From Escherichia coli (GTDB taxonomy: Bacteria; Pseudomonadota; Gammaproteobacteria; Enterobacterales; Enterobacteriaceae): DNA of 64,000 nucleotides. Shown in pieces: positions 20,801 through 23,800 of the stretch (positions are counted from its first letter, which is position 1; each line of letters opens with the position of its first letter). The stretch lies in assembly GCF_030013595.1 (NCBI RefSeq), contig NZ_CP122768.1; one strand, written 5' to 3'. The position numbers are program-made.

Positions 20801-23800
20801 TGGTGCGCGATTTCCAGGCGCTGTACTTTCTCTACACCTGCCAGTTGCAGGCCGAACGCCACGTTGTCTACCACATTACGCCACGGCAACAGCCCTTCAT
20901 TCTGAAAAACCACGCCCCGCTCTGCGCCCGGTCCCTCAATGCGTTTGCCCGCCAGTTGAATACTGCCGTGCTGATAAGGCACAAAACCGGCAATCAGATT
21001 CAGCAGGGTGGTTTTACCGCAGCCGGACGGCCCCAGCACCACCAGTAGCTCGCCGCTTTCCAGCGTCAGGTTGATATCTTCCAGCGCCGGTTTGCCGCCA
21101 TAATCGGCATAGAGATGAGAGATTTGCAGCATCTGCGCCTCCTTTTATTGCACGAAGCGCGAGGTCACGTACTGGCTGTAATCTTTCGCTACAGCCGGGA
21201 CTTTGCCCTGCTCTTTCAAAAACTGCGCGGTGTCGATGATCGCTTTGTTCACCGGTCCGGTCAGTTCTGCCGTTTGCTGCTGCGGCGTCAGATAGGTATT
21301 CCCCTTCACCAGCCCCGGAACGTCACCTTCAGGTACGCCGCTTAAACGTGCCAGTTTGCTGATGTTTTCCGGCTGTTTCAGCCACGCGTCTGGATTAGCA
21401 ATGTACGGTTGTTGAGCATCGATGGCGCTTTTAGCGAACGCTTTCACGACCTCAGGATGTTTCTCGGCAAAATCTTTGCGCACCACCCAGACGTCCAGCG
21501 TTGGCGCGCCCCACTGCCCGACCTGTTCAGAATCGGTCAACACCTTGCCGTCTTTTTCCAGGGCGTTAACCGCCGGTGCCCAGACATAAGCACCATCAAT
21601 GTCTCCCCGTTGCCATGCGGCGATAATCGCGGGTGGCTGCAGGTTCACTATCTCCACTTGTCCGGGTTTTATACCCCAGTGTTTCAGCGCCGCCAGCAGG
21701 CTGTAGTGGGTGGTGGAGATAAACGGTACGGCGATGCGTTTGCCAATGAGATCTTCCGGTTTGCTGATAGTTTTCTTTACCACCAGCGCTTCGGAGTTAC
21801 CCAGTTTTGACGCCAGTAAGAAGACTTCAATCGGCACCTGTTGGCTGGCTGCCACCGCTAATGGGCTGGAACCGAGGTTACCGATTTGGACATCGCCTGA
21901 AGCCAGCGCCCGCACGATGCTGGCTCCGCTGTCAAACTTGCGCCAGTCCACCGTCGCCCCGCTCTCTTTAGCAAAGGTGTTATCAGCCTGAGCCACTTTC
22001 GCCGGTTCAGCGGAGGTTTGATAGGCCACGGTGACGTTCACCGCCTGTGCCTGAAAAGCGATGAATGCCAGTGCGGCAAGAAGTGTGTTACGCGATGAAA
22101 TTGCCATGATTGTCTGCTCCCCTGTCTTGTTATAGGAGCAGTATTCAGGAATAAAAACATTCATTAAAAGAATTAGTCGTTATCGCACAGATGATTTTAT
22201 TCTTAGCAAAAAAGCGGCAAAGGAAAGATTAAATATGCAATTACACCCACTCTGACAATTCAGTAAGTTACTGCACTTCATTTTTATTAATGCATAAACA
22301 AGCAGAACATAATGTCTTTTATTTTATTAACAGCAATACATATAATGAAATCATTATATTCACATTGCATATATAACTGTATCATTCTCAATCAACCACA
22401 TAATACATTCACATAATGTATATAATCCATATTTGTGCCTAGAACATATTTTTAATATGTAATTAATTGACAAACTAAATCACATCTAAATACAATATAT
22501 AAAACAAAATAACTATACAAACCAAACACACAAACACTTAACATATGAACTACATAAAAGATTACGCAGTCGTATCCCCGTACCTGAAAGCCCCTTATTT
22601 TTCAGCTATCAGTAATTTTTAACACTTAAAAATTAGCATCTGTCTGTGCCAGAGATTACGTCTCTGCGGGCATCGTTGTGCTTGTAGTATAATAAATAAA
22701 ATGGAGTGTCATTAAGTGGATAAGGTTTTAGATTCAGCCATCCTTTCTTCGGCAAATAAAAGAAAGGGTATCCTTGCTATTGGCGCACATCCTGACGATA
22801 TAGAATTGGGCTGTGGCGCGTCGCTTGCTCGTCTTGCGCAAAAAGGAATTTATATCGCAGCCGTGGTGATGACTACCGGCAACTCTGGCACAGATGGAAT
22901 AATCGATCGCCATGAAGAATCGCGCAACGCCCTAAAGATATTAGGGTGCCACCAAACTATTCATCTTAATTTTGCTGACACCCGCGCGTATTTACAGCTC
23001 AATGATATGATTTCCGCCCTGGAAGACATCATTAAAAATCAAATTCCTTCTGATGTTGAAATCATGCGGGTATATACCATGCATGATGCCGACCGCCATC
23101 AGGATCATCTTGCTGTTTATCAAGCTTCAATGGTTGCCTGCCGAACTATTCCACAAATTCTCGGCTACGAAACCCCAAGCACCTGGCTTTCATTTATGCC
23201 TCAGGTTTTTGAATCCGTTAAAGAAGAATATTTCACAGTCAAACTTGCTGCATTAAAAAAACATAAAAGCCAGGAACGACGCGATTATATGCGTCATGAT
23301 CGCCTGCGTGCAGTTGCACAATTTCGCGGGCAACAGGTCAATAGCGATCTGGGTGAAGGCTTTGTAATTCATAAAATGATTCTTTGAGCAAATTGCATGA
23401 AAACCTGGATATTTATCTGTATGTCCATAGCAATGTTGCTATGGTTTTTAAGTACGCTAAAACGTAAACCCAGTCAAAAGAAAGGCTGTATTGACGCCAT
23501 TATACCTGCTTATAACGAAGGCCCGTGTCTGGCACAGTCACTGGATAATCTGCTGCGTAATCCTTATTTTTGCCGGGTAATTTGCGTAAACGACGGCTCC
23601 ACGGACAATACCGAAGCGGTCATGGCGGAAGTCAAACGCAAATGGGGCGACCGCTTTGTTGCCGTCACGCAAAAAAATACCGGTAAAGGTGGTGCGCTGA
23701 TGAATGGCCTCAATTACGCCACCTGCGACCAGGTTTTTTTAAGTGATGCCGACACCTATGTTCCGCCCGATCAAGACGGAATGGGCTATATGCTTGCAGA

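What the first reader, a model, noticed from the sequence alone, without database searches (positions are those of the whole stretch)
22165..22715. Unusually AT-rich, motif-repetitive 550-bp spacer between divergent tauA and yaiS
The region is far more AT-rich than the flanking genes and full of short recurring ACATA/CACAT/TATATA motifs and phased A/T tracts. It must hold the sulfur-starvation-controlled tauABCD promoter and whatever drives yaiSPXO; the composition suggests curved DNA and nucleoid-protein silencing. No ORF with family support lies within it.
Basis: seen in the sequence. Interest (0 to 1): 0.3.

Follow-up and report, generated by a model that had tools for sequence, protein, structure and literature searches.

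The report
AT-rich tauA–yaiS silenced control region
This is the known AT-rich control region between the E. coli taurine-uptake operon and a horizontally acquired four-gene cassette; its K-12 counterpart is already published as an H-NS-bound "promoter island", so the finding is real but ordinary.

Summary
The AT-richness is real. The spacer is the lowest-GC stretch of the 64-kb window (GC 0.23 over 300 bp; window mean 0.52). The true spacer is 22108-22715, because tauA starts at 22107, not 22164.

The short motifs occur about as often as the composition predicts. A/T tracts are not helically phased, and predicted curvature is ordinary. No ORF has family support.

The spacer has three parts:
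- **22108-22232:** the tauABCD promoter module, conserved across Enterobacteriaceae.
- **22233-22680:** a fast-evolving AT-rich core found only where the yaiS-yaiP-acetyltransferase-yaiO cassette sits. It contains a conserved ~105-bp block with a near-consensus sigma-70 promoter (TTGACA-18-TACAAT) aimed at yaiS.
- **22681-22715:** an invariant yaiS-proximal TATAAT, Shine-Dalgarno and GTG start.

The K-12 orthologue of 22262-22561 is one of 78 published "promoter islands". It is H-NS-bound in all the ChIP-chip studies compared, and the spacer carries RpoD-holoenzyme and H-NS SELEX sites.

The best reading is a sulfur-starvation promoter next to an H-NS-silenced strong promoter at the edge of acquired DNA. 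This is already known, so interest is low.

Two side results:
- E. coli carries two core alleles only 81% identical.
- The tau regulatory DNA upstream of the predicted -10 co-segregates with the cassette.

The parts
22108..22715 (.). Whole divergent spacer between tauA (- strand, ATG at 22107) and yaiS (+ strand, GTG at 22716); 608 bp, GC 0.30
22108..22232 (-). tauABCD promoter module: SD GGGGAG (22122-22117), invariant ATAACAA and AATACTG boxes, TAATTC-TTTA box, and upstream TTGCCG-T6-CTAA box. Homologous in all Enterobacteriaceae genera sampled.
   Evidence: Alignments; 85-100% invariant among 7 Escherichia alleles
22140..22145 (-). Predicted tauA -10 hexamer AATACT (reads 22145 to 22140). 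Predicted TSS near 22133, giving a leader of about 26 nt. The O157-type allele diverges immediately upstream, from 22146.
   Evidence: Inference from invariant boxes and spacing, and the breakpoint; the TSS was not verified because the primary paper is not held
22200..22223 (-). Conserved upstream activator-region box (minus strand CCTTTGCCGCTTTTTTGCTAAGAA). It lies under the only strong predicted curvature peak (about 20 deg/turn at 22211) and is a candidate part of the Cbl site.
   Evidence: the Cbl site position (-112 to -68) is recalled from van der Ploeg et al. 1997 and was not checked
22233..22680 (.). Fast-evolving AT-rich core. Two E. coli allele classes are 81% identical here, against 98-99% in the flanks. 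The core is present only where the yaiS cassette adjoins tauA.
22262..22561 (.). Orthologue of the published K-12 'promoter island' 383994_309 (U00096.2 383994-384302). It has 24 promoter-like hexamer pairs per 300 bp against 3.0 +/- 3.6 in the window, and 14.6 TpA per 100 bp against 4.5.
22441..22550 (+). Conserved block inside the core: an AT-rich upstream stretch, then -35 TTGACA (22467-22472), an 18-bp spacer, and -10 TACAAT (22491-22496). About 45 nt of CA-rich initial transcribed sequence follows. This is the distal yaiS promoter, with a predicted TSS near 22503.
   Evidence: The block is 80-90% invariant across E. coli alleles and E. whittamii. It is 82-90% identical in E. fergusonii, where the rest of the spacer is 42-57%.
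22545..22622 (+). 25-codon ATG ORF kept open in all 7 alleles through compensating indels. The peptide is not conserved, there is no SD and no family hit. It is probably not a gene; at most a uORF.
22650..22666 (.). Perfect inverted repeat CAGAGA-TTACG-TCTCTG, unique in the window. It is invariant in 6 of 7 alleles while its flanks vary, and its centre lies about 42 bp upstream of the TSS predicted for the proximal -10. It is a candidate operator or activator site.
   Evidence: 0.05 expected by chance; not conserved in E. fergusonii
22681..22715 (+). Invariant yaiS-proximal segment: perfect -10 TATAAT (22688-22693) with no recognisable -35, and SD GGAG (22703-22706), ahead of the GTG start at 22716.

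Best explanation
The spacer is a composite divergent control region at the edge of a horizontally acquired cassette.

**tauA-proximal module (22108-22232).** These 125 bp are the sulfate-starvation promoter of tauABCD. It is a weak sigma-70 promoter, with a predicted -10 AATACT at 22145-22140, and depends on the LysR-type activators Cbl and CysB bound upstream.

**AT-rich leader (22233-22715).** The rest travels with the yaiS-yaiP-acetyltransferase-yaiO cassette. Its very low GC and high TpA content make it a nucleation and spreading platform for H-NS. They also create, as a by-product, a very high density of promoter-like hexamers, which is the published 'promoter island' property.

Embedded in this leader is one promoter under clear purifying selection, TTGACA-18-TACAAT at 22467-22496. 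RNA polymerase holoenzyme can bind it unaided. A second, proximal -10 (TATAAT at 22688-22693) is preceded by a conserved palindrome.

**Proposed mechanism.** H-NS filaments over the core keep the strong yaiS promoter, and spurious initiation in both directions, off under laboratory conditions. Expression would need an unidentified anti-silencing signal.

**What is shown and what is inferred.** Shown here: composition, modular conservation, linkage to the cassette, and the conserved promoter. Taken from the literature on the K-12 allele: H-NS and RNA polymerase binding, and Cbl/CysB control. Inferred: that the window's own allele behaves the same way, the exact TSSs, and the silencing logic.
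For: - **Composition.** This is the lowest-GC stretch of the window. TpA is 14.6 per 100 bp against 4.5, and there are 24 promoter-like sites per 300 bp against 3.0 +/- 3.6.
- **Published K-12 orthologue.** It is listed as promoter island 383994_309 and is H-NS-bound according to all studies compared, code 'A'. It maps to window 22262-22561.
- **SELEX data.** An RpoD-holoenzyme SELEX peak and an H-NS SELEX site fall in this spacer, with the same TTGACA-18-TACAAT predicted for yaiS. There is also an RpoS SELEX peak.
- **Conservation of the promoter.** It is invariant in both E. coli allele classes and E. whittamii. Its block is 82-90% identical in E. fergusonii, where the flanking spacer is 42-57%.
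- **tau module.** It is conserved across Citrobacter, Klebsiella, Enterobacter, Raoultella and others.
- **Linkage to the cassette.** Among 80 Enterobacteriaceae species representatives with tauA, only the one with yaiS upstream (E. whittamii) has an AT-rich upstream region, with minimum GC per 300 bp of 0.24 against about 0.43-0.48 for the response-regulator type.
- **Recurrence elsewhere.** The cassette in Y. enterocolitica and C. braakii sits in other contexts, yet again has 300-400 bp of GC 0.27-0.29 upstream.
- **Cbl/CysB control.** Control of tauABCD is cited.
Against: - No expression, TSS or occupancy data exist for this allele, which is only 81% identical to K-12 in the core.
- Promoter-like density is no higher than composition alone predicts: 32 sites against 34 +/- 9 in Markov simulations. 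The tool scan found 2 sites against 4.0 +/- 1.9 in shuffles. So the 'island' property need not be selected.
- Only one weak (8/10) match to the H-NS high-affinity motif was found.
- Most of the core evolves as if unconstrained, and it tolerates IS1 insertion.
- Published work disagrees on whether H-NS is what silences promoter islands.
- The position of the Cbl site and the tauA TSS could not be checked, because the primary paper is not held.
Confidence: 0.75

Rival explanations
1. Junction debris. Apart from the tau promoter and the short yaiS-proximal segment, the AT-rich core is unconstrained DNA left at the cassette boundary. It has drifted to high AT content under mutational bias. H-NS and RNA polymerase binding are incidental consequences of composition and have no regulatory role.
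For: - The core is 81% identical between E. coli allele classes, against 98-99% in the flanks.
- It is 42-57% identical to E. fergusonii outside one block.
- Motif and promoter-like counts equal composition expectations.
- IS1 insertions and IS1-mediated deletions are tolerated.
- The AT-rich leaders upstream of the cassette in Yersinia and Citrobacter share no detectable sequence with this one.
Against: - A 105-bp block with a near-consensus promoter is conserved across three Escherichia species, inside otherwise random-like divergence.
- The 17-bp palindrome is invariant amid variable flanks.
- An AT-rich leader of similar size recurs upstream of the cassette in three unrelated contexts, which suggests it is retained.
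Confidence: 0.15
2. Intrinsically curved DNA. This is the first reader's structural idea: helically phased A/T tracts bend the spacer, and the bend itself recruits nucleoid proteins and modulates both promoters.
For: One local predicted curvature peak of about 20 deg/turn (99th percentile of the window) lies at ~22211, over A6 and A3 tracts in the conserved tau upstream box. H-NS is described in the literature as preferring curved AT-rich DNA.
Against: - Mean predicted curvature of the spacer is 7.0-7.2 deg/turn against a window mean of 7.4. That places it at the 23rd-40th percentile.
- The end-to-end ratio is straighter than in shuffles.
- There is no 10-11.5 bp periodicity of AA/TT or A-tracts; power is below the shuffle mean.
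- The model gives 25-26 deg/turn for phased A-tract controls and 8 for unphased ones, so it can detect curvature.
- The wedge parameters were recalled from memory, which weakens this test somewhat.
Confidence: 0.05
3. Hidden gene. The conserved block starts a small RNA or a regulatory leader. In this reading, a 25-codon uORF (22545-22622) and pairing of CACUUAA (22535-22541) with the yaiS start region UUAAGUG (22712-22718) would couple yaiS translation to uORF translation.
For: - Conservation extends about 45 nt downstream of the predicted TSS.
- The uORF stays open in all 7 alleles despite two indels.
- The long-range helix appears in the consensus, MFE and centroid folds of both alleles.
- In E. 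fergusonii, the start-codon change GTG to TTG is matched by C to A at the predicted partner.
Against: - There is no Rfam hit and no terminator.
- Fold z-scores are only -1.1 and -0.5.
- The leader-RBS duplex is no better than with shuffled leaders (fraction of shuffles at least as stable 0.13-0.22), and is weak in E. fergusonii.
- No pairs covary within E. coli or E. whittamii.
- The uORF peptide is not conserved, has no SD and no Pfam hit.
- The minus-strand hydrophobic ORF 22544-22452 shows about 8 of 10 variable sites nonsynonymous.
Confidence: 0.07

Closest known systems
E. coli 'promoter islands' (Shavkunov et al. 2009; Panyukov & Ozoline 2013, PMC3661553), entry 383994_309 yaiS(-)/tauA(+)
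   Same: It is the same locus. The K-12 island maps to window 22262-22561. It shares the extreme AT content and the high density of promoter-like sites. It is also linked to horizontally acquired genes, and the K-12 allele is reported as H-NS-bound in all datasets compared.
   Different: The window carries the other E. coli allele class, 81% identical in the core with a 9-bp indel. PlatProm itself was not run, and in my surrogate scan the density equals what composition predicts. Binding and transcription data exist only for K-12.
H-NS xenogeneic silencing of AT-rich acquired DNA (Navarre, Oshima, Grainger, Kahramanoglou datasets, as cited in PMC3661553 and PMC3946193)
   Same: An AT-rich leader of an acquired, lower-GC cassette (yaiS region GC 0.41-0.47), with a strong sigma-70 promoter inside the H-NS-bound tract.
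   Different: No anti-silencer is known for this cassette. The silenced tract directly abuts a housekeeping sulfur-starvation promoter, and whether H-NS affects that promoter is unknown.
Cbl/CysB-activated sulfate-starvation promoters (tauABCD, ssuEADCB; van der Ploeg et al. 1997, 1999)
   Same: The tauA-proximal 125 bp is the K-12-type tau promoter region, 98% identical to K-12. Cbl acts through a single site as activator, and CysB also binds.
   Different: This accounts for only about a fifth of the spacer. About 450 E. coli genomes (O157:H7 among them) and most other genera carry a version of this module only 63% identical to the one here.
Horizontal regulatory switching / 'switched' intergenic regions in E. 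coli (Oren et al. 2014 PNAS; Thorpe et al. 2018 'Piggy'; recalled from memory, not read here)
   Same: Nearly identical flanking genes (tauA 97% between K-12 and O157) have non-alignable or highly divergent upstream DNA, with a sharp breakpoint at 22146.
   Different: Here the switch is tied to a swap of the neighbouring gene cluster, yaiS cassette against response regulator/kinase cluster. It is not an isolated replacement of the intergenic region.

Membership tests
Promoter island (Ozoline laboratory definition) | A stretch of 300 bp or more with an exceptionally high density of predicted transcription start points | tested here: met
   A surrogate hexamer scan found 24 sites per 300 bp at 22251 against 3.0 +/- 3.6, the second highest in the window. 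The K-12 orthologue is listed by PlatProm. Caveat: the density equals the composition-matched expectation.
Promoter island (Ozoline laboratory definition) | Association with horizontally acquired genes | tested here: met
   The AT-rich region is present only where the yaiS cassette adjoins tauA (1 of 80 species representatives). The cassette is found in other contexts in Yersinia and Citrobacter. Columns C-E of the published table are also positive.
Promoter island (Ozoline laboratory definition) | RNA polymerase binding with little productive transcription | not testable with these tools
   Literature on K-12/W3110 only: an RpoD-holoenzyme SELEX peak, plus general statements about promoter islands.
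H-NS-bound / silenced region | H-NS occupancy in vivo | not testable with these tools
   The K-12 allele is coded 'A', meaning bound according to all studies compared, and the spacer holds an H-NS SELEX site. There are no data for this allele.
H-NS-bound / silenced region | AT content well above the genome average, with frequent TpA steps | tested here: met
   GC 0.23-0.30 against 0.516; TpA 11.8-14.6 per 100 bp against 4.5
H-NS-bound / silenced region | High-affinity nucleation motif (tCGATAAATT-like; consensus recalled from Lang et al. 2007) | tested here: inconclusive
   One 8/10 match at 22470 on the minus strand; 85 such matches occur in the whole window.
Cbl/CysB-dependent tauABCD promoter | Located directly upstream of tauA and orthologous to the characterised K-12 promoter region | tested here: met
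   The 128 bp upstream of the ATG is 98% identical to K-12, and the boxes are conserved across genera.
Cbl/CysB-dependent tauABCD promoter | Mapped TSS and footprinted Cbl and CysB sites | not testable with these tools
   The primary paper is not held. The positions given in the report are predictions, plus a recollection of -112 to -68 for Cbl.
Intrinsically curved DNA (phased A-tracts) | A-tracts repeated in phase with the helix (10-11 bp) | tested here: not met
   Power in the 10-11.5 bp band is below the shuffle mean for AA/TT and for A-tract centres.
Intrinsically curved DNA (phased A-tracts) | Predicted curvature above background | tested here: not met
   The spacer is at the 23rd-40th percentile of the window, with a single local peak at 22211. 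The model's controls behave as expected.
Small protein gene or sRNA | Family match, conserved peptide, or conserved structure with covariation and a terminator | tested here: not met
   No Pfam hit and no Rfam hit. No terminator. No covarying pairs among E. coli and E. whittamii alleles. Fold z-scores are -1.1 and -0.5. Peptides are not conserved.

The most novel reading that the evidence does not exclude
E. coli carries two deeply divergent control regions for the same tauABCD operon, swapped together with the neighbouring gene cluster. Everything upstream of the predicted -10, from 22146 outward, co-segregates with the yaiS cassette. It is only 63% identical to the version in O157:H7 and about 450 other genomes, and that version is closer to Citrobacter (84%) and Klebsiella (75%). 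If the two versions differ in Cbl/CysB response, or in exposure to H-NS spreading from the AT-rich core, then sulfur-starvation control of taurine use differs between major E. coli lineages because of a hitch-hiking regulatory swap. The sequence pattern is shown here. The functional difference is conjecture.
Probability: 0.3. Interest if true: 0.45.

Novelty: already known. Interest (0 to 1): 0.18.

Why it matters
It matters little beyond annotation. The finding re-discovers, from sequence alone, a region already catalogued in K-12 as an H-NS-bound promoter island next to the well-studied tauABCD promoter.

The useful outputs are:
- a corrected boundary (tauA starts at 22107);
- a modular map of the spacer;
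- evidence that the curvature and phasing argument does not hold;
- the observation that only about 105 bp of the AT-rich core, a near-consensus promoter and its first transcribed bases, is under clear constraint.

The allele dimorphism and the cassette-linked swap of the tau regulatory DNA could interest people who study intergenic-region evolution, or strain differences in sulfur scavenging.

Tried and rejected
- **Rfam** at permissive E-value over 21500-23300: nothing.
- **Terminator scan:** none.
- **Motif repetitiveness:** ACATA, CACAT and TATATA are not clearly above dinucleotide-shuffle expectation.
- **Helical phasing and wedge-model curvature:** negative. The wedge parameters were recalled from memory, but the controls behaved as expected.
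- **Small ORFs:** no Pfam hits.
  - The minus-strand hydrophobic 30-aa ORF (22544-22452) looked like a type I toxin. It was rejected because it has no SD, most of its variable sites are nonsynonymous, and its hydrophobicity follows from the TG-rich strand.
  - The plus-strand 25-codon ORF is kept open, but its peptide is not conserved.
- **Leader-RBS (anti-start-codon) pairing:** not better than shuffled controls, and weak in E. fergusonii. Fold z-scores were not significant.
- **The 9-bp indel between allele classes as an IS1 excision footprint:** rejected, because no 9-bp tandem duplication is present.
- **Copies on plasmids or phages:** none. The five 'plasmid' hits are megabase-sized (1.2-4.9 Mb) records that appear to be chromosomal sequence filed as plasmids.
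- **Primary tauA promoter paper** (PubMed 9401024 / PMC179728): not held.
- **Conway 2014 TSS supplements:** not held.
- **Fuqua & Wagner 2024 supplements:** do not contain this island.
- **Sequence homology between this spacer and the AT-rich leaders of the cassette in Yersinia and Citrobacter:** none detected.
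Full report
**Identity of the locus.** The window is Escherichia coli; 22050-22800 is 100% identical to strain 2012C-4221. It lies in reverse orientation relative to K-12. tauABCD is on the minus strand and yaiS, yaiP, an acetyltransferase (yaiX) and yaiO are on the plus strand. PGAP places the tauA start at window 22107. The alignment across genera shows a conserved GGGGAGCAGACAATC-ATG there, with no conservation of reading frame upstream. The real spacer is 22108-22715, 608 bp against 615 bp in K-12. MG1655 has no annotated feature inside it.

**Check of the observation.** The AT-richness is real and extreme.
- That is the lowest 300-bp value in the 64-kb window (mean 0.516, sd 0.064).
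- The spacer is also lowest at window sizes of 550 and 608 bp.

The named motifs occur, but their recurrence is close to what dinucleotide composition gives.
- ACATA occurs 8 times against 4.0 +/- 1.9 (z 2.1).
- CACAT and TATATA are not significant.
- The count of repeated 5-mers equals that in shuffles.

A/T tracts are not phased.
- Spectral power at 10-11.5 bp is below the shuffle mean.
- The number of tracts (15) is close to expectation (11.9 +/- 2.9), and the spacings are irregular.

A Bolshoy/Trifonov-type wedge model gives 25-26 deg/turn for phased A-tract controls and 8 for unphased ones.
- It puts the spacer at 7.0-7.2 deg/turn, against a window mean of 7.4. That is the 23rd-40th percentile.
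- A single sharp peak (20 deg/turn) appears at ~22211.
- The wedge parameters were recalled from memory, so this is supporting evidence, not decisive evidence. The model-free periodicity test agrees with it.

No small ORF has a Pfam match. Rfam finds nothing and there is no terminator-like site.

**Anatomy from comparative data: the tau module.** A scan of one genome per species with TauA returned 80 Enterobacteriaceae loci.
- In about 38 of them, a response-regulator gene lies divergently upstream of tauA. These include Citrobacter, Klebsiella, Raoultella, Enterobacter, Leclercia and the GTDB E. coli representative. The arrangement is the same as in O157:H7. Their upstream DNA has ordinary composition, with minimum GC per 300 bp of about 0.43-0.48.
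- Only E. whittamii has yaiS upstream, and only it has an AT-rich upstream region (0.24).

Aligning the tauA-proximal DNA shows about 125 bp conserved in every genus. The elements, read outward from tauA, are:
- the SD;
- an invariant ATAACAA box;
- an invariant AATACTG box;
- a TAATTC-TTTA box;
- a TTGCCG-T6/7-CTAA box.

This module is window 22108-22232. From the invariant boxes and their spacing, I predict a -10 of AATACT (22145-22140), a weak -35 and a TSS near 22133. The primary mapping paper is not held, so this is a prediction. Cbl is reported to act through a single site as activator, and CysB also acts at this promoter. My recollection of the Cbl footprint (-112 to -68) would put it at about 22201-22245. 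That span covers the conserved upstream box and the curvature peak.

**Anatomy: the AT-rich core.** The remaining 22233-22715 belongs with the yaiS cassette. Within E. coli there are two allele classes:
- a window type, which also includes UTI89 and LF82 at about 92.5% identity to the window, found in 1035 of 5426 complete genomes;
- a K-12 type, in roughly 3100 genomes.

The two classes are 81% identical over 22233-22680, with a 9-bp indel, while the flanks are 98-99% identical. This within-species divergence exceeds the distance of either class to E. whittamii (86% and 82.5%).

Against E. fergusonii, which also has the tauA-yaiS arrangement, most of the spacer is 42-57% identical. That is essentially unconstrained.

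One block stands out. 22441-22550 is 80-90% invariant among the seven Escherichia alleles and 82-90% identical in E. fergusonii. It contains TTGACA-18-TACAAT (22467-22496), an 11/12 match to consensus. An AT-rich stretch precedes the promoter, and about 45 nt of CA-rich sequence follows it.

Closer to yaiS there are two further features:
- The perfect palindrome CAGAGA-TTACG-TCTCTG (22650-22666) is unique in the window, with 0.05 expected by chance. It is nearly invariant amid variable flanks, but is not kept in E. fergusonii.
- The last 35 bp are invariant. They hold a perfect TATAAT at 22688-22693 without a -35, GGAG at 22703-22706, and the GTG start at 22716.

The palindrome centre lies about 42 bp upstream of the TSS predicted for that -10. 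This is the geometry of a class II activator site. That reading is an idea, not a result.

**The cassette elsewhere.** YaiS homologues of 78-83% identity occur in E. fergusonii, Yersinia enterocolitica and Citrobacter braakii. In each case the same four genes follow. In the last two species the cassette sits in unrelated contexts. Even so, the 300-400 bp upstream of yaiS is again GC 0.27-0.29, with 16-17 promoter-like sites per 300 bp. No sequence similarity to the window spacer is detectable. The AT-rich leader is therefore a recurrent property of this cassette, not of tauA.

**What is already published.** Panyukov & Ozoline 2013 list 383994_309 yaiS(-)/tauA(+) among 78 E. coli K-12 'promoter islands'.
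- The entry is associated with predicted foreign genes and coded as H-NS-bound according to all the studies compared.
- The supplementary table gives 383994-384302, which maps to window 22262-22561.

Shimada et al. 2014 report an RpoD-holoenzyme genomic-SELEX peak in the yaiS-tauA spacer, mark it as containing an H-NS SELEX site, and predict TTGACA-18-TACAAT for yaiS. Shimada et al. 2017 list an RpoS-holoenzyme peak there too.

My surrogate hexamer scan agrees that the region is promoter-dense compared with the rest of the window: 24 per 300 bp against 3.0 +/- 3.6, the second highest. That density is what a first-order Markov model of the same composition gives (32 against 34 +/- 9). So it is a by-product of AT-richness rather than evidence of selection. 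Later work questions whether extra boxes or H-NS explain promoter-island silence in every case.

**Mechanism, with status of each step.**
- Shown here: the spacer is modular, consisting of the tau module, the cassette-linked AT-rich core and the invariant yaiS-proximal segment.
- Shown here: one strong promoter inside the core is under purifying selection.
- Shown in the literature for the K-12 allele: H-NS and RNA polymerase holoenzyme bind the spacer, and tauABCD is controlled by Cbl and CysB.
- Inferred: H-NS polymerises over the AT-rich core of this allele too. It keeps the strong yaiS promoter and spurious bidirectional starts silent, and an unidentified signal relieves this.
- Inferred: the TSS positions, the palindrome as an operator, and any effect of H-NS on the adjacent tau promoter.

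**Alternatives considered.**
- *The core is mostly unconstrained junction DNA.* This is partly true and compatible with the main reading, but it does not explain the conserved block or the recurrence of AT-rich leaders.
- *Curved DNA as the signal.* Not supported.
- *A hidden small gene or RNA.* Weakly suggested by three observations:
  - a 25-codon ORF stays open in all alleles;
  - a predicted pairing joins CACUUAA (22535-22541) to the yaiS start region;
  - one compensatory change occurs in E. fergusonii.

  The statistics do not support it. Fold z-scores are -1.1 and -0.5, the duplex is no better than shuffles, the peptides are not conserved, and there are no family hits.

**A side result worth recording.** The tau module itself exists in two versions. 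K-12 or the window is only 63% identical to O157 over the 128 bp upstream of the ATG, although their tauA coding starts are 94-97% identical. O157 against Citrobacter is 84%, against Klebsiella 75% and against Enterobacter 73%. The breakpoint is at 22146, immediately upstream of the predicted -10. The yaiS-linked version is shared by E. whittamii and E. fergusonii, at 77-88%. So the tau regulatory DNA was exchanged together with the neighbouring gene cluster. Whether this changes regulation is unknown.

**Verdict.** The feature is real, but it is an already catalogued kind of region at an already catalogued locus. Interest is low.

Noticed in passing
window 22146-22232; L003:6097-6360 (O157:H7): The tauA regulatory DNA upstream of the predicted -10 comes in two versions. 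The yaiS-linked one (here and in K-12) is 63% identical to the O157/response-regulator-linked one. The latter is closer to Citrobacter (84%) and Klebsiella (75%), although tauA coding sequence is 97% identical between K-12 and O157.
   Followed up: partly
L003:6361-12096; L013, L015-L031 and other loci upstream of tauA: O157:H7, 451 E. coli genomes and about 38 of 80 Enterobacteriaceae species representatives have a response regulator upstream of tauA instead of the yaiS cassette. In O157:H7 the cluster continues with a MASE1 histidine kinase, uhpC-like and ABC-transporter genes. This looks like the ancestral arrangement.
   Followed up: partly
window ~22322-22330 (L007:1782/2551 junctions; L005:5282; L006:4288-5865): IS1 is inserted in the most AT-rich part of the spacer, with a 9-bp target duplication. 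It sits at the identical site in two strains, one of which then lost yaiS-yaiX. A third strain has two IS1 copies at the yaiS 5' end and has lost tauABC. The target duplication overlaps the 9-bp indel that separates the two allele classes, but no tandem duplication is present.
   Followed up: partly
window 22716-23387: yaiS is an intact 223-codon ORF here, the same length as homologues in E. fergusonii, and close to those in Yersinia and Citrobacter (221-222 aa). K-12 yaiS is annotated at 185 aa. RefSeq marks the gene as a C-terminally incomplete pseudogene in five of the strains sampled; the small gene ykiC (annotated in K-12-type records, an unnamed 120-bp ORF in 2012C-4221) lies on the opposite strand at its 3' end.
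   Followed up: no
window ~17100-17560, ~7230-7530, ~60250-60760, ~13810-14180: Other strongly AT-rich stretches dense in promoter-like sites (GC 0.25-0.36 per 300 bp; 20-25 promoter-like sites per 300 bp). The one at ~17240-17540 lies between hemB and the ehaB autotransporter gene and is also hyperdivergent from K-12 (64-77% identity).
   Followed up: no
window 24736 (K-12 L002:8711-9939): K-12 carries IS2 inside the acetyltransferase gene yaiX. The window has the uninterrupted gene (ORF 24442-25152).
   Followed up: no
window 22300-22600: There is strong strand asymmetry in the core. GC skew is -0.42 to -0.48 and AT skew is positive, so the plus strand is A+C-rich (for example ACAAACCAAACACACAAACAC at 22517-22537). 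ACATA occurs 7 times on the plus strand and once on the minus strand.
   Followed up: no
L093:650-1049; L094:3672-5000: The yaiS cassette in Y. enterocolitica and C. braakii is preceded by more than 1 kb without called genes. The last 300-400 bp are GC 0.27-0.29, and there is no sequence similarity to the Escherichia spacer.
   Followed up: partly
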